Shown here: piece by piece, positions 1 to 39,700 of the stretch | How the letters are laid out: every line of letters starts with the position of its first letter | Numbering within the stretch: position 1 is the first letter of the stretch | Source: Candidatus Portnoybacteria bacterium | GTDB taxonomy: Bacteria > Patescibacteriota > Minisyncoccia > Portnoybacterales > GWB1-42-6 | Direction: 5' to 3' | Assembly: GCA_028688325.1 (NCBI GenBank) | Contig: JAQTYI010000001.1 | Coordinates: 31,088-95,087, forward strand | DNA length: 64,000 nucleotides | The notes under the pieces: generated by a model | What the model was told of the DNA's origin: nothing | Seen by the model: only the letters and a program-made list of their open reading frames with translations | The model's database searches: none | Position numbers and translations under genes: made by a program

Positions 1-1538
1 ATCGTGGCTGGATCTTTCGGATTGGGATAAGCAGGCCGCAGAAAGAAAATCACGGGCGCCAAATTCTTGGGCAAATCCACGCCTTCGCCGTAATTGGCAA
101 CCGTGCCAACAAGCACACTTCCTTCGCCTTGTTGAAATTTCCTGGCCGCTTCCCTTGGCTTAATGCCATTCCCGTAGCTGATGGCGTCCACGCCTTCCTC
201 GCCGGCCAGCATCAGAAACTTCTCCCGCTCTTTATTTGACACAACCACCACCAAAGAGCGCGAACCGGCATCCTGCAAATCTCGACAGGCCTTTGCTATC
301 TTGCGCAATGACCGGGTTAAATCCTGGCGGCTGCGCGATTTCACGGCCAGATTGGGAGTATCCGAGGGAATCAGTATCTTAGCGTTCTCAACCGGAAAAT
401 CTGATTCAAAAGCATAGAAAGGAAACTTGATCCCCGATTCAAATCCCAATGTCTCCGCGTCACCGATAGTCGCCGAATAAGCCAGAGTCCGAGACGCTAA
501 TATCTTTTTGATAAGCGGAGCCACATAATAAGCCCTGATGACCAAACGATACTGCGTCTTGCTGTTCTCGCCGATCTCTTGCTCATAATAACCGTAGGTA
601 TAATTTAACGGCTTGCGATTGTCCGTTTCCAAGGAATACTCCAGCGACCGCAGATAGCGCGTCAAGCTTCTTGTTATCACTTCCGCGCGCTTCAATGTTT
701 CGTGCTGTTTTAACGCGTCAATCTTGCCATTTTTCATGGCCTGACGAACAGCGCGCATCATCGACCTTGAATCAATGCCGTAAAGATCGGACAGAAGATT
801 GTTTATTTCCGCCGGTTCAAGTAAAGTGGCGGTTCCCGGCTGTCGTTTTTTTACGACCTTCATCATCTTCCGGCGAAAACTGTCCAAAATCTGCGCCTCT
901 TGAATATCGGCATTGTAGAATAGATCCACCGCTTTCTCAAGATGATAATCAGTGATTTCGTAGCTCAAAGAGCCGCGGAATACCCTGGCGATCTGATGCA
1001 CTTCGTCGATTACCAGCCCGGCCGTCTCTCCCCATTCTTCCGAAAAAAGATGAGTGAAAAGATAAAAAGCCATGGTGCAGACCACGATGCCGCCTTGTTT
1101 GGCGTTCCATTTGTCGCCCAAATATGGGCAGGGCTCGGCGCCAGCCACTTCCGTTTCGCCCGTTTCCGCATCAACACGATGAGGACAATCAAGCAAAGAG
1201 CAGGGCGCTGCTTCGGCGGAAATCTCTCCGTTGTAATACAAACACGGATACTCGTTCCGGCCATACATCACTTTGACGTCCGGATGCAGTTTTTTGGCCT
1301 GATCCACAAGGGTCTTGTTGGGCGTGATGTAAAAAAGCGAAGTTTGCCCAGCCGCTTCCAGCGTTTTCAAAAATGTGTAGCCGATAGCGGTTTTTCCGGT
1401 GCCGGTTGGCAATTCCAGCAGCAGCGAACAATCATGTTTTTCAAGCAACATCAACGCTTTTCCCTGATTACCCATAATCTTCGGGTAACGATTCTTCGGC
1501 CAATGCGCCAAAAAATCCAGATGTTCCAGATGTTTCAT
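1..1538 (-). CDS. DinG/XPD (Rad3)-family ATP-dependent DNA helicase with Fe-S domain; 3' end runs off the window
   Basis: Manual reverse translation gives a continuous ORF from the ATG at 1536-1538 to position 1. It has a Walker A-like PTGTGKT, a DEAH-type box VIDEVHQ, a four-Cys cluster (C..C..C..C) typical of XPD/DinG Fe-S helicases, and a C-terminal YGEGVDLP motif. It is missing from the ORF track because no stop lies inside the window. Confidence 0.8.
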   Translation of the reverse strand, partial: MKHLEHLDFLAHWPKNRYPKIMGNQGKALMLLEKHDCSLLLELPTGTGKTAIGYTFLKTLEAAGQTSLFYITPNKTLVDQAKKLHPDVKVMYGRNEYPCLYYNGEISAEAAPCSLLDCPHRVDAETGETEVAGAEPCPYLGDKWNAKQGGIVVCTMAFYLFTHLFSEEWGETAGLVIDEVHQIARVFRGSLSYEITDYHLEKAVDLFYNADIQEAQILDSFRRKMMKVVKKRQPGTATLLEPAEINNLLSDLYGIDSRSMMRAVRQAMKNGKIDALKQHETLKRAEVITRSLTRYLRSLEYSLETDNRKPLNYTYGYYEQEIGENSKTQYRLVIRAYYVAPLIKKILASRTLAYSATIGDAETLGFESGIKFPFYAFESDFPVENAKILIPSDTPNLAVKSRSRQDLTRSLRKIAKACRDLQDAGSRSLVVVVSNKEREKFLMLAGEEGVDAISYGNGIKPREAARKFQQGEGSVLVGTVANYGEGVDLPKNLAPVIFFLRPAYPNPKDPAT

Positions 1539-1634
1539 TGTATTCTCCTTTCAAAGAACTTTCTTGGGAATCTTTTCTAAGGAAAAGATGGCTCCCTTTC
1601 CAAAAATTCCATGGCTGAAATTCTTGGAAAGAGT

Positions 1635-2298
1635 GGTGAGAATCAGTTTTGATTCTCACCCCATAGATTGCCGGACTGAACCGTACACTGCGACACGGAA
1701 CGGTACCTATCCGGACATAAAATTATATAAAGAAAAGAATTTTAATGTAATAATGATGGTAGGAGTTCAAATGAACTCCTACCCCGCACAAAGCAATTCC
1801 GGACCGCACGCCACACTACCGAAGCGTAGCACGCATCACATTGCCTTCATTATTTTTAGTTATGGCAGAACATGATTATCAGAGGTTCTGCCCCACGCCT
1901 AGGTCCGCTAAACTACGCCCCGCACCAGCATGCTGGACATTACCTAACCCTACAAAAAAGAACTTTTCAAAAACTTCAATGACTTGAAATCTTTGAAAAA
2001 TTGACAGGAGTTCTTTTTAAAAAACTCCTGCCCCGAAGAACGCTGCGGCATACTCAACGCTACTGCACCAGAGCGAACTAAGCCGCGCGCAATCATATAA
2101 CATATATGGGTAGTTTTAAAAATTTAATTTTGGCGGGGATTAAATTTCACCCCGCCCCATGCAGGAGTGAAGATTGCTCCACTGCAGAATACTCTGCGCT
2201 GCGATACCAGATTTTTATAAAGAACTTTTCAAAAAATTCAAGCAAGTTGAATACTTTGAAAAATTGGCAGGGAATTTTTTAGATTCCCTGCCCCGAAC
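1635..2298 (-). repeat. Array of six periodically spaced GC-clamped hairpins (F 1635-1660, A 1759-1782, E 1864-1892, B 2005-2030, D 2133-2156, C 2268-2290), each followed on the plus strand by CCCC(G/A)NN; on the minus strand each reads GGGG-stem-loop-stem followed by an A/U-rich tract (terminator-like)
   Basis: Read directly from the sequence. The stems differ between copies but all keep Watson-Crick pairing, e.g. caggagtt/aactcctg versus cagggaat/attccctg versus ggcagaac/gttctgcc. Spacing between hairpins is 118-140 bp. Copies B and C share about 80 bp of flank (aagaacttttcaaaaaNttcaa..ttgaa..ctttgaaaaattgNcagg). Confidence 0.6.
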
Positions 2299-2353
2299 CG
2301 AACAGGAGCGAAACGCGCGATACTTAAGACCGCTTAACACTACTTAGCTCCGA

Positions 2354-2941
2354 TTAGACAGCTTTCTTTGATTCCCACGATTCGATCCTGAACCGACCGA
2401 AAGGTCCGCGCCGCGCCGGCCGAAAATCACCCAGACCGACAGATGAGCCGGCCCTTTCCACGAGCGTTTTGGCCTTGTCTTCAGCGCAGGCCTTCTCATC
2501 AATCGTGAAAGTCGCCGAGAAGACCCATTTGTCAAACCGAGGCCGCACGATGCAGACCGTGATGCCCTTGCCGGGAATAATCCCTCTTCTCTTGTCCGTT
2601 TTCCATTTTTCCTCCTGATTGTGGAAAGGAAAAAAGATTTCCTCAATGGCCAGGAAAGACGGTAACAAAGTCGTATCCTTGGTGGAGATGGCCCGTTTTC
2701 CCTCCAACTTCACCAAACGGCCGGCTTCCACCAGGCAACTGAAAAGATAGCTGGCCGGGATACCGATTATTCCATTTTCGTTCTTGATCACCTTTTTGGC
2801 TGCTTCCTGATCCGGCGTCTTGTCGGCATCCTTGGCTTTCCTGGCGCCTGCTCCGCCAAAAAGCTCGTTTAACATGTCATCCGTCGCCGGATTCATCAGA
2901 ATCGGCGATACTCCCGTGAATTTGGCCTTTACAGTAATCAT
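2354..2941 (-). CDS. Hypothetical 195-aa protein with RAMP-superfamily (Cas6/Cas7-like) hallmarks
   Basis: Strong Shine-Dalgarno site (aaaggagg, 5-nt spacer) before the ATG. The N-terminus is a beta-strand (ITVKAKFTGVSPILMN) followed by GIPASYLFSCLVEAG, which resembles the RAMP IPGSSxKGxLR box. Near the C-terminus is a glycine-rich loop, VGLGDFRPARRGPFGRF (GxG-x7-GxFG). The assignment comes from motifs only. Confidence 0.35.
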   Translation of the reverse strand: MITVKAKFTGVSPILMNPATDDMLNELFGGAGARKAKDADKTPDQEAAKKVIKNENGIIGIPASYLFSCLVEAGRLVKLEGKRAISTKDTTLLPSFLAIEEIFFPFHNQEEKWKTDKRRGIIPGKGITVCIVRPRFDKWVFSATFTIDEKACAEDKAKTLVERAGSSVGLGDFRPARRGPFGRFRIESWESKKAV

Positions 2942-3186
2942 ATTGCCTCCTTTGCGTTTAAGGTCCGTCGAGCATAAATTGTTTGAAAGAACCCCTAAAA
3001 TCCATCGCCAAAAGCGATTATATACAGTATCATATTATGAATATTGTGTCAACCTATTGCCAAAAACATATTTTATGATAATATATAGAAGCTAAAAACT
3101 AATTCACGCCAAATAAAATACACGCTACGCAAAACGCCATTTGGCGTAGATTAGCGTTTATTGATTAGCGTAAAGTAGCTTCTATA

Positions 3187-3444
3187 ATGAAAAAAGACAT
3201 CCATCCCCAGTATTATCCCGAAGCCAAGGCCACTTGCGCCTGCGGCAATTCGTTCATCACCGGCTCGACCAAGCCAGAATTGAATGTGGAAATCTGCGCC
3301 CAGTGCCATCCGTTTTATACGGGCAAGGAAAAACTCATCGACACGGCCGGACGCGTTGACCGCTTCCGCAAGATGCAGGCCAAAAAGACCGACATCTCCG
3401 CCAAAAAAGGCGTGAAAAAAGAACGGATAAAGAAACAGAAATAA
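3187..3444 (+). CDS. rpmE: 50S ribosomal protein L31
   Basis: [10 protein letters not shown] start and a CxxC...CxxC zinc-ribbon pattern typical of L31. Confidence 0.9.
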
Positions 3445-3454
3445 TAAAGACAAG

Positions 3455-3580
3455 ACATTTATTGTTCGAGTGAGCGCAACGAATCGAGAGCTGTAAAAGA
3501 CGGAAATTTAACTTCTCGACTTCAGTTTACCCTGAGCTTATCGAAGGGCTTGAAGAATGAATTTCCGTCTTTTTAAAATT
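3455..3580. repeat. Palindromic intergenic element: 13-bp perfect outer stem aaaagacggaaat/atttccgtctttt enclosing the ttattgttcgag..cttctcgact core; a related copy lies at 51775-51835
   Basis: Inverted repeats read from the sequence; the core is shared with the region at 51775-51835. Confidence 0.5.
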
Positions 3581-3582
3581 CT

Positions 3583-4323
3583 ATGGCCAAAGGCGTCATT
3601 TTAGAAATTCGCGCTGGAGCCGGCGGAGACGAAGCCGCGATTTTCGCGGCTAATCTTTTCCGGATGTATTCAAGATACGCCCAATCGCAAGGTTGGAGCT
3701 TTTTGGTTATAGACGAAAGCCGCAATTCCATCGGCGGGCTCAAAGAAATAACCATGGAAATAACGGGCGCGGAGTCCTATGAACAGCTGAAAAATGAAAG
3801 CGGCGTGCATCGCGTCCAGCGGGTTCCCAAAACCGAAAAGAACGGCCGGGTGCACACTTCCACCGCCACTGTCGCCATCCTGCCCAAAGTTGACGCGGCC
3901 GAGATTAGAATCAATCCGCAAGACCTGCAAATTGACGCGGTGCGCTCTTCGGGACCGGGCGGACAAAATGTCAACAAACGCTCCACTGCCGTGCGAATAG
4001 TGCACTTGCCCACCAACACGGTCGTTTTTTCGCAGACCGAGCGTTCGCAGGCGCAAAACAAAGAAATTGCCATGGAGATCTTGCGCGCCAAGGTCTACGA
4101 AAATATGCGCAACAGGGAAATGGCCAGCTTGAGCCAGGAACGAAGAGCGCAAATCGGCACAGCCGACAGGTCCGAGAAAATACGCACCTACAATTATCCG
4201 CAAAACCGCATCACGGACCACCGCATCGGCAAAAGCTGGCACGACCTGGAAACTATCATCGACGGAAAAATGGATCCGATAGTCAAGGCCTTCCGCATAA
4301 CCGCTGATAAAACGGATTTGTAA
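3583..4323 (+). CDS. prfA: Peptide chain release factor 1 lacking the N-terminal domain 1
   Basis: The sequence aligns to RF1 from about residue 108 onward. It has the PxT (PKT) anticodon-mimic motif of the RF1 type and a GGQ motif. An in-frame TAA lies two codons upstream of the ATG, so the ORF cannot extend 5'. Confidence 0.85.
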
Positions 4324-6547: not shown

Positions 6548-7231
6548 TTATTTTACTTGTTCCGCTTCCGCTTCGGCGGCAGCGGCAGCAGCCGCTTTTT
6601 CTTCCTCGCCGACGACCTTAACTTCGGCTACCGCTTCAACCGGCTTGACTTCCAATTCTTCCATCTCTTTGTCGGAACGCGGCGGCGACACCAAGGCGAC
6701 CGTTTCTTCCAAGTCGGCCAGAATCTTAACGCTGCCAGACAGCGCCAAATCCTTGATGTGAATTTTATCCTCGAATGTCGCCAGCGAAGAAATATCAACT
6801 TTGATTTCCTTGGGCAAGTCCTGCGGCAGCGCTTCAACTTCAACTTCCTGCATGGCGCGGACTAAAACGCCGCCGTCCGCCTTCACCGCCGGCGATTCGC
6901 CGATAAACACGAAAGGAACCTTGGCTTTCATCTTTTCATCCATTTTCACCTCAAAAAAATCCGCGTGTATCACCTGGCCGTTCAAAATATCTCGTTCAAG
7001 ATCGTGGATAAAAACATTGCGCTTTTTGCCGTCCACAGACAGGGACAAAAGAGTGGTTTCGCCGGCTTCCTTGAAAATGCCTTCAAAATCCTTGGCATTA
7101 ACCGTAATAGATATCGGTTTTTTCCCGTGGCCGTATAAAACAGCCGGAATAAATCCGGTTTTTCTCAAAGCGCTCACTTTTTTGCCAAGGATAATCCTTG
7201 GGTCGGCTTTTAGTTCCAACATGAAATTCAA
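6548..7231 (-). CDS. rplY: 50S ribosomal protein L25/general stress protein Ctc
   Basis: N-terminal L25 fold motifs (RKTGFIPAVLYGHGK..ISI) and an acidic/Ala-rich C-terminal tail typical of the Ctc form. Confidence 0.85.
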   Translation of the reverse strand: MNFMLELKADPRIILGKKVSALRKTGFIPAVLYGHGKKPISITVNAKDFEGIFKEAGETTLLSLSVDGKKRNVFIHDLERDILNGQVIHADFFEVKMDEKMKAKVPFVFIGESPAVKADGGVLVRAMQEVEVEALPQDLPKEIKVDISSLATFEDKIHIKDLALSGSVKILADLEETVALVSPPRSDKEMEELEVKPVEAVAEVKVVGEEEKAAAAAAAEAEAEQVK

Positions 7232-10505: not shown

Positions 10506-10948
10506 GAAGTCCAAGCAAATCGGGCAATCGCCCTTCGCTACGCGAAGGGAGGAAAGTCCGAACTCTCTCTCCCTGCCACGGCGGGGTTAAAAAAGGTAGC
10601 GGCTAACAGCCGTCCATCGTAAGATGCGAGGTGCGAACAGTGACGATTTTATCCGAAAGGATAAAATCGCCCTCCGAAGCTTTACGCGTAGGAGGGCGCA
10701 ATTTGACCATAAGAAATTGCAAAATTTCCAAAGTCAAAATGAAACGGCAAAATCCTTACCGGGTGCAAGATCAAACTATGAGACCGCAAGCTTGGTTCTC
10801 ATAAGACAAGTAGATCGCCCGAGCCCCGCAGCAATGCGGGGCCCAGACAGATGATTGCCCATTCGCTCGTTGCATCGCCCAGGACTTGTCCTGAGCGAGC
10901 GCAGCGAGTCGAAGGACAAAATTCGGCTTATAGATTTGTTTGGACAAT
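10506..10948 (+). ncRNA. rnpB: RNase P RNA (bacterial type A-like)
   Basis: 5' GAAGUCCAAGC (P1); P3 hairpin cccttcgc-ta-cgcgaaggg; P4 5' strand AGGAAAGUCCGAAC; P4 3' strand ACAAAAUUCGGCUUAUA near the 3' end; the closing strand gatttgtttggac pairs with gtccaagcaaatc. A terminator hairpin follows at 10949-10980. Confidence 0.75.
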
Positions 10949-36720: not shown

Positions 36721-39700
36721 ATGAAGTTTACCCACCTCCATGTCCACTCCCACTATTCCCTGCTCGACGGTCTCGCCAAGATAGACGGGCTTGTCGACCG
36801 CGCGCTGAAATTAGGAATGGATTCGCTGGCTTTAACCGACCACGGCTCGCTTTACGGCGCGGTGGAGTTTTACAAAAAAGCCAAAGCCAAGGGGCTAAAG
36901 CCCATAATCGGTACGGAGCTTTATGTGGCGCCGGAAAAACTGACTGATAAGCGCCCTCGCATAGATGATAAAAATTACCATTTAATCTTGTTGGTTAAAA
37001 ACAAGACCGGATATCAAAATCTGGTTTTTTTGATGACCGAGGCCTGGCTCAAGGGATTTTATTACAAGCCCCGCATCGACAAGGACTTGCTGCGCGGCCG
37101 CGCCGAAGGCCTCATCGCCTCTTCCGCGTGTTTGGCCGGTGAAATTCCTCAGGCCATATTAAAAGGCAATCTCGATAAAGCGAAAGAGTTGGCTTTGGAA
37201 TACCAGGAAATTTTCGGCGCAGGCAATTTTTTTCTGGAATTGCAACACCATGCCAATTTGCCCGAGCAAGCCAAGGTCAACGCCGAACTTATAAAAATAA
37301 GCAAGAAAACCGGCGTGCCGCTGGTCGCGACAAACGATGTTCATTATCTAACTCCCGATCAGGCCCAAGCCCAGGATATATTGATGCTGGTCAACACCAA
37401 CGCGGATATCGACGACCCGGAACGCCTGTCGATGAGAGACAATGATTTTTCTTTGCGCCCACCACAGCAATTGATCGATTATTTCCAAGATGTTCCCGAA
37501 GCCATCTCAAACACACAAAAAATCGTCCAGCAATGCAACTTTGAATTCGAGCTGGGCAAATACCAGCTGCCGCATTTTAAAGTGCCGACCAAACAAACGC
37601 CCGAAGCGTTCTTGAAAGAACTTGCCTACAAAGGCATCAGCCACCGCTATCCAGGACAGACCAGCCAAGAAGTTCTGGAGCGGCTTGAATATGAGCTGGG
37701 AGTCATCAACAAGATGGGCTTCGCTTCGTATTTTTTAATCGTGCAAGATTTTGTCAATTGGGCAAAAAACCAGGGCATAGGTGTCGGCCCCGGCCGCGGT
37801 TCGGCCGCCGGCTCCATTGTCGCCTACCTTTTAAACATCACAGAGATAGAACCCTTAAAATACGACTTGCTGTTTGAAAGATTTTTGAATCCCGAACGCA
37901 TTTCCATGCCGGATATCGATTTGGATTTTGCCGACAATCGCCGGGACGAGGTCATCGCGTATGTGCGCCAAAAATACGGCGATGACCATGTGGCTCAGAT
38001 CATCACCTTCGGAACTATGGCGGCCCGCGCGGCCATCCGCGACACCGGCCGCGCCATGGGCGTGGCGTATCTCCTTTGCGACCAAGTGGCCAAAAGTATT
38101 CCCTTCGGCCTGACGCTGGACAAAGCTCTCACCGACTCCCAGGAATTCAAACAGCTTTATGATTCCGACGAGCAAGTCAAAAAACTTATAGATACCGCCT
38201 TGGTGTTGGAAGGCGTGGCGCGCCACGCTTCCACCCACGCGGCTGGAGTCCTTATTACCAAAGACCCGTTAAATACCATCGTGCCCTTGCAGCGGCCGAC
38301 GCAAGACAGGGAAAACGGCGGCAATGTTTCCCAATACGAAATGCATGCCATTGAAGACCTGGGTCTTTTGAAAATGGACTTTTTGGGGTTGAAAACCCTA
38401 ACCCAGATAGAAAATACTGTTAATATCATCAAAAATACCAAGGGCGAAAAAATAAATGCGGGCGCGCTGGCGTTGGATGATAAAAAAACCTACAAGCTTC
38501 TGCAAGAAGCGAAAACCACGGGCGTGTTCCAGCTGGAATCGGGCGGAATGAAACGGAATCTGAAGGAATTAAAGCCCACGGTTTTTGAAGATATTATCGC
38601 CATGGTGGCATTATACCGGCCCGGCCCGATGGACTTCATTCCGGATTTCATCGCGCGCAAACACGGCCACAAAAAAATCGAATATATCCACCCGGCGCTG
38701 GAAGGCATCATCGGCAACACCTACGGCGTCGTCGTCTATCAAGAGCAAGTCATGGCCATTGCCAGCCGCTTGGCCGGCTTTACCATGCCCGAAGCCGACA
38801 CGCTGCGCAAAGCCATGGGCAAAAAGATAAAAAAACTCATGGACGAGCAGCGCGAAAAACTCATCCAGGGCATGACGCGCAATAATATCACCGGCGGCAT
38901 CGCCGAAAAGATATGGGAATTCATCGAGCCCTTTGCCCAATATGGCTTCAACAAAGCGCACGCCACCTGCTACGCCCTGCTCGGATATCAGACCGCGTAT
39001 CTTAAAGCCCACTACCCGACGGAATTTATGGCCGCGTTGATGAATTCCGAATCCGACGATATCGAGCGCATCGCTTTTTTAGTGGACGAATGCCGACAGA
39101 TGAAGATCGATGTTCTGCCGCCCGACATCAATGAAAGTTTGGGTTCGTTTACCGTGATGAAAGACGGCGCCATCCGTTTCGGGCTGAAGGCCGTGAAAAA
39201 TGTCGGTTCCAATGTGGTGGATGCCATTGTTAAAGAAAGAAAACAAAACGGCGCGTTCAAAACCATCGCCGAAGTCATTGAAAGAGTGAAGGACAAGGAC
39301 TTGAACAAAAAATCTTTGGAAAGCTTAATAAAATGCGGCGCGCTGGACGCCATCGGCGAACGCGGCCAATTTTTGGCGAACCTTGAAGCGTTGTTAAACT
39401 ATGCCCGCGAAGTCCAACGGCCAAAGACCAACGGCCAAGCCAGCTTATTTGGCGGAGCGGAAAATAAAAATCTTCTGCCGCCGCTGAAATTGCAGGAGGC
39501 GGCTCCGGCCGGCAAGAAAGAAAAGCTGGACTGGGAGAAAGAATTGCTGGGGCTTTATGTTTCCGAGCATCCGGCCAGGGAATACGAAAAAGTCATTTTA
39601 CAGCGCGCTTTTATGCCGTCCAAGCTGACGCACGAAATGGTCGGCAAATCCTTGAAAGTCGGCGGCGTTTTGAGCCATGTTAAAAAAATAATCACCAAAG

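What the first reader, a model, noticed from the sequence alone, without database searches (positions are those of the whole stretch)
1629..2941. Periodic array of six covarying GGGG-clamped hairpins between a DinG-family helicase gene and a RAMP-like protein gene
The 1540-2353 interval has no credible ORF. It contains six hairpins at roughly 118-140-bp spacing (1635, 1759, 1864, 2005, 2133, 2268). Each stem is different but perfectly paired (caggagtt/aactcctg, cagggaat/attccctg, ggcagaac/gttctgcc, ggcgggg/ccccgcc, gtaggagttca/tgaactcctac, ggtgagaatca/tgattctcacc). Each is followed on the plus strand by a conserved CCCC(G/A)NN. Read on the minus strand they become GGGG-stem-loop-stem followed by an A/U-rich tract, which is terminator-like. 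That minus-strand orientation matches both flanking genes. Two units also share an 80-bp upstream block (TTGAAkTTTTTGAAAAGTTCTTT) that could act as a -35/spacer. Variable stems with a constant flank and regular spacing fit a tandem array of small-RNA genes, or processing/binding sites for the adjacent RAMP-like protein. Neighbouring genes encode a DinG helicase (Csf4-like in type IV CRISPR-Cas) and a Cas6/Cas7-like G-rich-loop protein, so the locus could be a minimal, non-canonical RNA-guided or RNA-processing system.
Basis: partly seen in the sequence, partly recalled or inferred. Interest (0 to 1): 0.78.

Follow-up and report, generated by a model that had tools for sequence, protein, structure and literature searches.

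The report
VIPR guide-RNA array with helicase
The six hairpins are the 3' ends of six small guide-RNA genes of a VIPR system, a CRISPR-like RNA-guided DNA-recognition system first described in 2026 preprints, here sitting in the chromosome of a tiny Patescibacteria (CPR) bacterium next to a DinG/XPD-type helicase.

Summary
Six GC-clamped hairpins lie on the minus strand between a 195-aa gene and a DinG/XPD-like helicase gene.

The 195-aa protein folds as a single-domain Cas7-like RAMP. It is homologous to the SUSP1 Vipr protein (profile E about 1e-10). A covariance model built from these units finds exactly six copies in the window, none convincingly elsewhere in 64 kb, and also recovers the four experimentally shown vrRNAs of phage SUSP1.

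The locus is therefore a VIPR system (bioRxiv 10.64898/2026.04.26.720920): Vipr protein, an array of vrRNA genes, and a helicase accessory gene. In 25 Patescibacteria loci the same gene pair flanks arrays of very different length, with conserved hairpin tails and fast-changing variable positions.

It is a new member of a very recently described kind, with the YNNNG repeat variant. I could not find targets or establish the pairing rule for this variant.

The parts
2354..2941 (-). vipr gene: 195-aa single-RRM RAMP (Vipr homologue)
   Evidence: - No Pfam, NCBIfam or PADLOC hit; PHROGs phrog_4652 at E 1.7e-17.
- AlphaFold model pLDDT 88.8, pTM 0.84.
- Profile of 55 homologues against SUSP1 Vipr: hhalign probability 97.2%, E 3.8e-11. 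Against PDB 36pp_D 'SUSP1 Vipr protein': E 9.7e-11.
- G-loop GLGDFRP..GPFGRF and thumb R133-P134 are invariant.
2258..2352 (-). vrRNA gene 1: repeats 2293-2352 (start 2 nt after the vipr stop codon), hairpin tail 2266-2292
   Evidence: Covariance model R1: 47.5 bits, E 1.3e-14; this unit was not in the training set. Hairpin GGCAGGGAAT/ATTCCCTGCC followed by AAUUUUUC is terminator-like. Repeat register shown.
2124..2216 (-). vrRNA gene 2: repeats about 2157-2211, hairpin tail 2132-2156
   Evidence: R1: 43.6 bits, E 2.7e-13; not in the training set. All 10 pentamer positions checked by eye carry [G/C][U/C]. Repeat register shown.
2214..2241 (-). promoter-like element for vrRNA 2 (TTGAAT-N16-TATAAA), inside the AT-rich palindrome 2223-2265
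Evidence: Read directly from the sequence. Inverted repeat I3. Function is inferred.
1995..2092 (-). vrRNA gene 3: repeats 2033-2092, hairpin tail 2003-2032
   Evidence: R1: 52.6 bits, E 2.5e-16; not in the training set. Terminator-like site. Sigma-70-like promoter 2120->2092, TTTAAA-17-TATGAT.
1856..1952 (-). vrRNA gene 4: repeats 1893-1952, hairpin tail 1864-1892
   Evidence: R1: 40.1 bits, E 4.1e-12; not in the training set. Preceded by the AT-rich palindrome 1961-2002 (I2).
1750..1843 (-). vrRNA gene 5: repeats 1784-1843, hairpin tail 1758-1783
   Evidence: R1: 63.3 bits; the identical sequence from L001 was in the training set. Terminator-like site.
1627..1720 (-). vrRNA gene 6: repeats 1661-1720, hairpin tail 1635-1660
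   Evidence: R1: 61.9 bits; the identical sequence was in the training set. Sigma-70-like promoter 1751->1722, ATTACA-18-TATAAT.
1596..1631 (.). third copy of the AT-rich imperfect palindrome, between the last hairpin and the helicase start
   Evidence: Inverted repeat I5 and direct-repeat family D1. Function unknown.
3..1538 (-). vap-like accessory gene: first 512 of 596 codons of a DinG/XPD-family SF2 helicase (runs off the window start)
   Evidence: - Pfam DEAD, ResIII, Helicase_C_2 and DEAD_2. PADLOC typeIV_DinG at E 3.6e-31. NCBIfam dinG_rel at 7.5e-12.
- Closest solved relatives are archaeal XPD, E 2e-8.
- Walker A PTGTGKT, D178-E-V-H, and four Cys (C99, C113, C118, C137) where XPD/DinG carry the Fe-S domain, read.
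- Full length is seen in L001 11404-13194.
- The gene lies downstream of vipr plus array in 25 Patescibacteria loci.
3034..3063 (-). sigma-70-like promoter upstream of vipr (TTGGCA-18-CATAAT)
   Evidence: Consensus scan, 10 of 12 matches. Function is inferred.

Best explanation
**What it is.** The locus is a VIPR (Viral Interference Programmable Repeat) system domesticated in the chromosome of a Candidatus Portnoybacteria bacterium.

**Components.**
- The 195-aa gene encodes a Vipr protein, a minimal Cas7-like RAMP.
- The 814-bp 'gap' holds six vrRNA genes on the same strand.
- Three more vrRNA genes lie beyond the helicase, outside the window.
- Each vrRNA is about 95 nt. It has 10-12 pentanucleotide repeats, Y-N-N-N-(G>C), closing with YNNGG. 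A GC-rich hairpin of 7-13 bp follows, then an A and a U-rich stretch.

**Inferred mechanism, by analogy with the SUSP1 structures.**
- One Vipr protomer binds each pentamer and the protomers form a helical filament.
- The G-loop (D172/F173/R174) and the thumb (R133) sequester the conserved bases.
- The variable bases are presented to read a DNA target non-contiguously.
- The hairpin caps the 3' end and also terminates transcription.
- At least three units appear to have their own promoter. Unit 1 probably comes off the vipr transcript.
- The DinG/XPD-like helicase is the accessory (Vap) effector, acting on the bound DNA much as CasDinG does in type IV-A CRISPR-Cas.
- The likely role is interference with phages or other mobile elements of the host.

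**Shown here:** protein fold and homology, RNA gene architecture, strand bias, conservation of the three-part locus, and rapid turnover of variable positions.

**Inferred:** transcription, RNP assembly, DNA targeting, the helicase role and the defence function.
For: 1. **Protein.** Confident model with only CRISPR RAMPs as top structural neighbours. Profile homology to SUSP1 Vipr at E 3.8e-11 and to the PDB chain 36pp_D named 'SUSP1 Vipr protein' at E 9.7e-11. An intermediate homologue (L037) hits the SUSP1 gene by tblastn at E 4e-11. The SUSP1 RNA-contact residues D177/W178/R179 and R138 (paper 10.64898/2026.04.26.720927) align with D172/F173/R174 and R133, which are invariant in 55 homologues.
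2. **RNA periodicity.** A position matrix over 116 units shows [G>C][U>C] every 5 nt from -56 to -5, with near-uniform bases between. Over 210 units from 29 loci the profile is Y 94%, N1-N3 roughly uniform, G/C 95%.
3. **Strand and period specificity.** Period-5 clusters number 106 on the vipr strand against 5 on the other. Periods 4, 6 and 7 give 0-4.
4. **Covariance model.** Model R1 finds exactly six units in the window, E 4e-12 to 6e-20, all on the minus strand. It finds 385 matches in related loci, almost all on the vipr strand. It also recovers the four SUSP1 vrRNAs, one upstream and three downstream of the genes as published.
5. **Tail.** All 10 stem pairs show compensatory changes: 111 double-changed cells against 27 in shuffles.
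6. **Locus conservation.** The vipr-array-helicase arrangement occurs in 25 Patescibacteria loci, with gaps of 436-2591 bp holding 2 to more than 20 units.
7. **Guide turnover.** Against a relative with 81% vipr nucleotide identity, four positionally equivalent tails are nearly identical. The variable positions of three guides are at chance identity (19-39%); one is at 81%.
8. **Published description.** It matches: vipr plus one vap, about 100-nt vrRNAs in flanking intergenic regions, 9-16 repeats plus a structured tail, alternative YNNNG repeats, and helicase or nuclease vaps in types III-V.
Against: - There are no expression data for this organism.
- No target was found. 251 guides searched against 1.8 Mb of local sequence under eight pairing rules gave only background. 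Six exact-pattern scans of viral and metagenome collections gave 0 hits.
- The SUSP1 positive control also gave 0 hits, so these negatives are weak.
- The repeat consensus differs from the characterised GGY/NN type. The first G is free, and the second is C in about 31% of repeats. The published 1-nt-skip code therefore cannot simply be assumed.
- Only 2 of 6 units pass a strict sigma-70 scan and only 3 of 6 hairpins pass a strict terminator scan.
- The hairpin covariation count is inflated, because units were selected for having a hairpin.
- The text I could read does not mention Patescibacteria or DinG, so I could not assign the VIPR type.
Confidence: 0.85

Rival explanations
1. It is the same RNP, but the RNAs are not guides. 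The pentamer tracts would only be assembly or titration scaffolds for the RAMP protein, in the manner of TRAP on its 11 triplet repeats or CsrA on CsrB. The variable bases would be neutral spacers.
For: No target was found under any rule tried. Base composition at N1-N3 is close to uniform.
Against: Homologous SUSP1 RNPs are experimentally programmable through exactly these variable positions. Tails and Y/G positions are conserved while N positions are replaced wholesale between close relatives, which is not expected of neutral spacers in a scaffold. Arrays of up to 20 different units make little sense for titration. The negative target searches are weak, because the positive control also failed.
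Confidence: 0.07
2. It is a VIPR system, but one used for the cell's own needs, such as gene regulation, chromosome maintenance or control of a resident prophage, rather than for defence against incoming phages.
For: The locus sits between housekeeping genes (rpmE/prfA and rpsB/tsf) and not in a defence island. It is kept at the same site in a relative. A prophage-like recombinase and terminase lie about 6 kb away. Published VIPRs act by transcriptional repression and often target resident prophages.
Against: No match above background was found to the 64-kb window or to the 20-kb L001 locus, which includes the prophage edge. Guide turnover is fast, which fits an arms race better than regulation. 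Only about 84 kb of a genome of at least 789 kb could be searched.
Confidence: 0.15
3. It is a degenerate or minimal type IV CRISPR-Cas locus: Csf2-like Cas7 plus Csf4/DinG, with a decayed CRISPR array.
Against: There are no identical direct repeats and no spacer-like unique segments of foreign origin; the 'spacers' are themselves pentamer repeats. Csf1, Csf3, Cas6, Cas1 and Cas2 are absent from the neighbourhood. The protein is nearer to type III and type VII Cas7 structurally, and is sequence-homologous to Vipr rather than to Csf2. The solved helicases nearest by sequence are XPD, not CasDinG.
Confidence: 0.02
4. They are ordinary intrinsic terminators or REP-like intergenic hairpins with no link to the flanking genes.
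For: Three of the six hairpins satisfy a terminator consensus.
Against: No further copy occurs in 64 kb; the best other hit has E 0.097. Each hairpin is preceded by a phased pentamer tract. The arrangement is conserved with the same two genes across Patescibacteria.
Confidence: 0.01

Closest known systems
VIPR systems, characterised type II (Escherichia phage SUSP1, Pseudomonas fulva prophage); bioRxiv 10.64898/2026.04.26.720920 and 10.64898/2026.04.26.720927
   Same: - A ~20-kDa single-RRM RAMP with the same G-loop and thumb residues.
- RNAs of about 100 nt made of about 12 pentanucleotide repeats plus a structured 3' tail.
- RNA genes encoded on the vipr strand in the intergenic regions on both sides of a two-gene operon.
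- Hypervariable positions within a conserved repeat frame.
- One covariance model detects both sets of RNAs.
   Different: - The repeat is Y-N-N-N-(G/C), with three free positions, instead of Y-N-N-G-G.
- The tail is a simple GC hairpin that looks like a terminator, rather than a pseudoknot.
- Many units appear to have their own promoter.
- The accessory gene is a 596-aa DinG/XPD-like helicase instead of a small DNA-binding Vap1.
- The host is a Patescibacteria chromosome, between ribosomal-protein genes, rather than a phage.
- Arrays are larger: 9 units here and more than 20 in L030.
- The pairing rule is untested.
- The Vipr residues next to the RNA contacts differ systematically: LMN-P and [I/V/T]-R-P against LMN-R and H-R-P.
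Type IV-A CRISPR-Cas (Csf complex plus CasDinG/Csf4)
   Same: A RAMP-backbone RNP is paired with a DinG-family helicase rather than a nuclease. No adaptation genes are present. The helicase hits the PADLOC typeIV_DinG model. The likely outcome, binding plus helicase action rather than cutting, is an inference.
   Different: There is a single RAMP and no Csf1, Csf3 or Cas6. There is no CRISPR array. The guides are gapped pentamer tracts, each with its own variable hairpin. The Vipr protein is not a Csf2 orthologue.
Cas7 backbone subunits of type III and type VII effectors (Csm3, Cmr4, Cas7 of type VII)
   Different: In those systems each protomer covers 6 nt of a contiguous spacer without base specificity, which is established knowledge. 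Here the period is 5 nt, with two base-specific positions. No catalytic partner subunits are present.
TRAP bound to its trp-leader triplet repeats, and TIGR-Tas guide arrays (both recalled from my own knowledge, not tested here)
   Same: TRAP is a protein oligomer that reads about 11 short repeats spaced 5-6 nt apart. TIGR-Tas is another non-CRISPR array of small guide RNAs.
   Different: There is no homology to either protein. TRAP RNA has no programmable positions. TIGR arrays use Nop-domain proteins and contiguous dual spacers.

Membership tests
VIPR system | Vipr protein: a small RAMP with one RRM core, a G-loop and a thumb, homologous to SUSP1 Vipr | tested here: met
VIPR system | RNA-contact residues of the SUSP1 structure (G-loop D177/W178/R179, thumb R138) | tested here: met
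   These align with D172/F173/R174 and R133. D, R and R-P are invariant, and W is replaced by F throughout this clade and its phage relatives. H17 of SUSP1 is N here.
VIPR system | vrRNA: 9-16 tandem pentanucleotide repeats with conserved positions alternating with hypervariable ones (YNNGG, or the related NNNGG, YNNNG or NNNNG) | tested here: met
   There are 11 repeats of Y-N-N-N-(G 64%/C 31%) plus a final YNNGG. Y is 94% pyrimidine and N1-N3 are near-uniform. This is the YNNNG variant named in the preprint's methods, not the characterised YNNGG.
VIPR system | A conserved, structured 3' tail after the repeats | tested here: met
   A GC-rich hairpin immediately follows the GG of the last repeat. 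All 10 of 10 pairs show compensatory changes (the units were pre-selected for a hairpin). Tails are conserved between relatives while guides change.
VIPR system | vrRNA genes lie in the intergenic regions flanking vipr, on its strand | tested here: met
   All six units in the window are on the minus strand. Period-5 clusters number 106 against 5 in favour of the gene strand. 385 model hits are almost all on the gene strand, on both sides of the helicase.
VIPR system | A minimal locus with one conserved accessory (vap) gene acting on DNA | tested here: met
   The DinG/XPD-like helicase is present downstream in every Patescibacteria locus whose contig reaches far enough, 25 loci in all. The preprint states that types III-V carry nucleases or helicases. 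Which type number applies could not be checked.
VIPR system | vrRNAs are expressed as ~100-nt RNAs and co-purify with Vipr | not testable with these tools
   This needs small-RNA sequencing or a pull-down. The only indirect signs are promoter-like and terminator-like sites.
VIPR system | Non-contiguous recognition of DNA targets by the variable positions (1-nt skip in type II) | tested here: inconclusive
   Eight rules were tried locally and six collection scans were run. No target was found. The SUSP1 control scan was also negative.
CRISPR-Cas type IV-A | A CRISPR array of near-identical direct repeats separated by unique spacers | tested here: not met
   The hairpins differ from unit to unit, and the segments between them are pentamer repeats. 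Rfam finds no CRISPR repeat family here.
CRISPR-Cas type IV-A | A multi-subunit Csf effector (Csf1, Csf2, Csf3, Cas6/Csf5) | tested here: not met
   There is only one RAMP gene. The neighbours are rpmE, prfA, rpsB and tsf.
CRISPR-Cas type IV-A | An associated DinG-family helicase | tested here: met
   PADLOC typeIV_DinG at E 3.6e-31. However, the nearest solved sequences are XPD rather than CasDinG.
Rho-independent terminators | A GC-rich stem-loop directly followed by a U tract | tested here: inconclusive
   Three of the six hairpins pass the consensus scan. Across 210 units the hairpin is followed by A (88%) and then a T-rich stretch, 44-59% T at positions 3-7. This is compatible with a dual role as tail and terminator.

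The most novel reading that the evidence does not exclude
The Patescibacteria vipr-array-DinG clade may be a mechanistically distinct VIPR branch. Its vrRNAs have three free bases per pentamer (Y-N-N-N-S), which would imply a recognition code different from the published two-read, one-skip rule. Its XPD/DinG-like helicase may be recruited to the RNA-DNA complex as CasDinG is in type IV-A CRISPR-Cas. That would make it a host-domesticated, helicase-armed VIPR and a possible living analogue of the step from VIPR to class 1 CRISPR. The systematic Vipr substitutions next to the RNA contacts (LMN-P and [I/V/T]-R-P) would then be the determinants of the altered code.
Probability: 0.3. Interest if true: 0.7.

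Novelty: new member of a known kind. Interest (0 to 1): 0.45.

Why it matters
- VIPR systems were described only in April-June 2026 preprints. Only the phage type II version, with YNNGG repeats and a small DNA-binding Vap, has been characterised in the text I could read.
- This locus and its 25 or more Patescibacteria relatives provide about 200 natural guides of the YNNNG variant, coupled to a DinG/XPD-like helicase. They sit in chromosomes of organisms with very few known defence systems.
- This is a ready data set for deriving the pairing rule of the three-variable-base repeat.
- It can be used to ask what a helicase adds to a binding-only RNP.
- It can be used to test the proposed evolutionary link between VIPR and helicase-using CRISPR types.
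- Practically, Rfam, Tandem Repeats Finder and the Pfam, NCBIfam and PADLOC protein libraries gave no informative hit to these arrays or to Vipr. A period-5 [G/C][Y] scan or a small covariance model finds the arrays cleanly.

Tried and rejected
- **Rfam.** On the region and the whole window it gave only chance sub-threshold hits, plus RNase P and tRNAs elsewhere.
- **tRNA and tmRNA scan.** Nothing in the region.
- **Tandem Repeats Finder.** It does not see the degenerate pentamers.
- **Protein family searches.** Pfam, NCBIfam and PADLOC give nothing for the 195-aa protein. tblastn of the CPR protein against 50,697 phage records gave no match. The link to SUSP1 needed an intermediate homologue or a profile.
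- **Histidine substitution idea.** I tested whether loss of the first repeat G is explained by H17->N. It is not, because the YNNGG-type homologues in my set also have N there.
- **Substitution classes from near-duplicate guides.** Only one true orthologous pair exists among the CPR units, so nothing could be inferred.
- **Target and rule search.**
  - Local search of 251 guides against 1.8 Mb under 8 rules gave background only.
  - Viral-contig scans of two guides at target periods 3 and 4 gave nothing.
  - Metagenome-contig scans of two guides at period 3 gave nothing.
  - The SUSP1 control also gave nothing.
- **Hammerhead ribozymes in related arrays.** Seen by eye in L015, L010 and L011, but Rfam gave no hit at the gathering threshold or at E<=1.
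- **AlphaFold-database fold search.** It was unavailable, so I could not check whether this protein clusters with the preprint's seed A0A1F4YLN4.
- **Readings rejected.** CRISPR array, scattered terminators and small ORFs were considered and rejected; see the rival explanations.
Full report
**Observation.**
- Window 1540-2353 has no credible ORF.
- It contains six perfect GC-containing hairpins at 1635-1660, 1758-1783, 1864-1892, 2005-2030, 2132-2156 and 2266-2292.
- Dinucleotide shuffles of the region give 0.12 such hairpins on average, against 5-6 observed.
- The flanking genes are both on the minus strand. One is a 195-aa ORF at 2941-2354. The other is a helicase ORF that starts at 1538 and runs off the window.

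**Flanking genes and genomic setting.**
- The helicase has DEAD, ResIII, Helicase_C_2 and DEAD_2 domains.
- Its best defence-model hit is PADLOC typeIV_DinG at E 3.6e-31. It also hits DinG/YoaA models.
- Its nearest solved relatives by sequence are archaeal XPD helicases.
- It carries PTGTGKT, DEVH and four cysteines at the Fe-S position (read).
- The 195-aa protein matches nothing in Pfam, NCBIfam or PADLOC.
- The same sequence occurs in GCA_028710785.1, Candidatus Portnoybacteria, on a 789-kb contig. There the two genes sit alone between rpmE/prfA and rpsB/tsf, and the helicase is 596 aa.

**The small protein is a Cas7-type RAMP.**
- It has 171 homologues, nearly all 'hypothetical' and from Patescibacteria.
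- The invariant C-terminal motif is GLGDFRPxxRGPFGRF.
- An AlphaFold model built with 55 homologues has pLDDT 88.8 and pTM 0.84.
- Foldseek against the PDB returns only Cas7 subunits: Csm3, type VII Cas7 and Cas7-11, at E about 1e-7.
- PHROGs places it in phrog_4652, a family of unknown function.
- Viral predicted structures give three matches, one of them labelled a RAMP protein.

**Related loci.**
- A scan of one genome per species returned 79 loci.
- In 25 Patescibacteria loci the same helicase lies downstream, separated by a non-coding gap of 436-2591 bp.
- Those gaps are filled with 2 to more than 20 hairpins at 90-150-bp spacing. Each is preceded by GG and followed by A plus a T-rich stretch.
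- The remaining homologues, at 30-37% identity, come from Proteobacteria, Planctomycetes, Magnetococcales and others. They sit in phage or prophage modules with a PD-(D/E)XK nuclease, AAA_24, DUF669 and a RecD2-like helicase, or with tail genes.

- I aligned 116 units on the first hairpin base. This shows [G>C][T>C] at -6/-5, -11/-10 and so on to -56/-55, with near-uniform bases between.
- In register, each unit is 11 x Y-N-N-N-(G/C), then Y-N-N-G-G, then the hairpin.
- Stringent period-5 clusters occur 106 times on the gene strand and 5 times on the other. All five are in one locus with a divergent layout. Periods 4, 6 and 7 give 0-4.
- In the window itself the lag-5 z-score is 7.0.
- The phage-type homologues have adjacent tracts of YNNGG instead.

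**Identification.**
- These preprints describe VIPR systems. Vipr is a ~20-kDa RAMP. One accessory vap gene accompanies it.
- The ~100-nt vrRNAs are made of 9-16 YNNGG repeats plus a structured 3' tail, and are encoded in the intergenic regions around the genes.
- One Vipr protomer binds each repeat, sequesters GGY and presents NN. The NN bases pair with dsDNA while skipping every third target base.
- Seven types are defined. Types III-V carry nuclease or helicase vaps. Alternative NNNGG, YNNNG and NNNNG repeats are noted.

**Direct tests of membership.**
- The profile of my 55 homologues aligns with SUSP1 Vipr (YP_009199429) at 97.2% probability, E 3.8e-11.
- The same profile hits PDB chain 36pp_D, 'SUSP1 Vipr protein', at E 9.7e-11.
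- An intermediate homologue hits the SUSP1 gene by tblastn at E 4e-11.
- The RNA-contact residues of the SUSP1 structure align with invariant D172/F173/R174 and R133.
- I built covariance model R1 from 30 Patescibacteria units.
  - It finds exactly six units in the window, all on the minus strand: 2352-2258, 2216-2124, 2092-1995, 1952-1856, 1843-1750 and 1720-1627. E values run from 1e-14 to 6e-20, and four of the six were not in the training set.
  - Nothing else convincing turns up in 64 kb.
  - It finds 385 matches in related loci.
  - It recovers the four SUSP1 vrRNAs in exactly the published layout.
- The hairpin stem shows compensatory changes at all ten pairs. The caveat is that units were chosen for having a hairpin.

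**Anatomy and dynamics at this locus.**
- Unit 1 starts 2 nt after the vipr stop codon.
- Units 2, 3 and 6 have sigma-70-like promoters: 2241-2214 by eye, and 2120-2092 and 1751-1722.
- Three hairpins pass a terminator scan.
- Three more units follow the helicase, outside the window.
- I compared the locus with a relative whose vipr is 81% identical in nucleotides and which has the same synteny (L086).
  - The arrays differ in length: 561 against 816 bp, and 1049 against 630 bp.
  - Four positionally equivalent tails are nearly identical.
  - The variable positions of three guides are at chance identity (19-39%), and one is at 81%.
- This is the 'hypervariable N in a conserved frame' behaviour reported for vrRNAs.

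**Differences from the characterised type.**
- The clade's repeat has a free base where type II has its first G, and C in about 31% of cases at the second G.
- The tail is a plain hairpin.
- The accessory gene is a large DinG/XPD-like helicase.
- Two Vipr positions next to the RNA contacts co-vary with the repeat type: LMN-P and [I/V/T]-R-P here, against LMN-R and H-R-P in the YNNGG loci. This is a correlation only.

**What I could not establish.**
- I found no target and could not establish the pairing rule for this variant. All local and collection searches were negative.
- A published-rule control with a SUSP1 guide was also negative, so the negatives say little.
- The held text of the preprints does not name Patescibacteria or DinG. 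Their type table is not available to me.
- One of their five seed proteins has an accession (A0A1F4YLN4) of the series used for CPR genomes. That is my inference only.

**Verdict.**
- The locus is a new member, with the YNNNG repeat variant and a helicase accessory gene, of a kind that became known in 2026.
- Its mechanism is inferred by homology and has not been shown for this clade.

Noticed in passing
L001 13202-13301, 13328-13421, 13469-13562 (beyond the window's left edge): Three more vrRNA units lie between the helicase stop codon and rpsB, so the locus has nine guide genes, not six. Many related loci also carry units on both sides of the helicase.
   Followed up: partly
window 2223-2265, 1961-2002, 1596-1631: An AT-rich imperfect palindrome (AACTTTTCAAAAAnTTCAA...TTGAAnnCTTTGAAAAATT) follows the hairpins of units 1, 3 and 6. 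Part of it reads as a promoter for the next unit. Position-equivalent AT-rich palindromes of different sequence occur in the L014 and L030 arrays. It could be an operator or a second terminator.
   Followed up: partly
L015 about 6714-6760 and 7063-7105; L010 about 7650; L011 about 7612: Some related arrays carry short hairpins followed by CUGAUGA...GAAA, which looks like a hammerhead core. The preprint reports hammerhead-interspersed vrRNA arrays. Rfam gave no hammerhead hit at the gathering threshold or at E<=1.
   Followed up: partly
Vipr alignment: residue 18 and residues 131-134 of the window protein: Loci with YNNGG repeats have LMN-R and H-R-P (thumb). The Patescibacteria loci with YNNN(G/C) repeats have LMN-P and [I/V/T]-R-P. 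These are possible specificity determinants for the first repeat G.
   Followed up: partly
L031 (helicase 5704-3941 on the opposite strand; units 2420-3916 on the minus strand): In one locus the helicase is divergent from vipr and has its own array on its own strand. This accounts for all the 'wrong-strand' period-5 clusters.
   Followed up: no
L001 19051-20588: A serine recombinase and a terminase large subunit lie about 6 kb beyond the helicase. This could be a prophage edge and a candidate target region. No guide matched the part held.
   Followed up: partly
window 10512-10946 (+): A bacterial RNase P RNA is called only just above threshold, at 109 bits against a gathering score of 100. The match spans 435 nt for a 367-position model, which suggests insertions.
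   Followed up: no
window 38746-38827 (-): There is a marginal match to the vrRNA model, at 9.4 bits and E 0.097. It is probably chance.
   Followed up: no
L033, L076, L082 (record titles): Some vipr homologues with arrays sit on contigs binned as archaea (Woesearchaeota, Methanoregula, Bathyarchaeia). This may reflect archaeal viruses or mis-binning.
   Followed up: no
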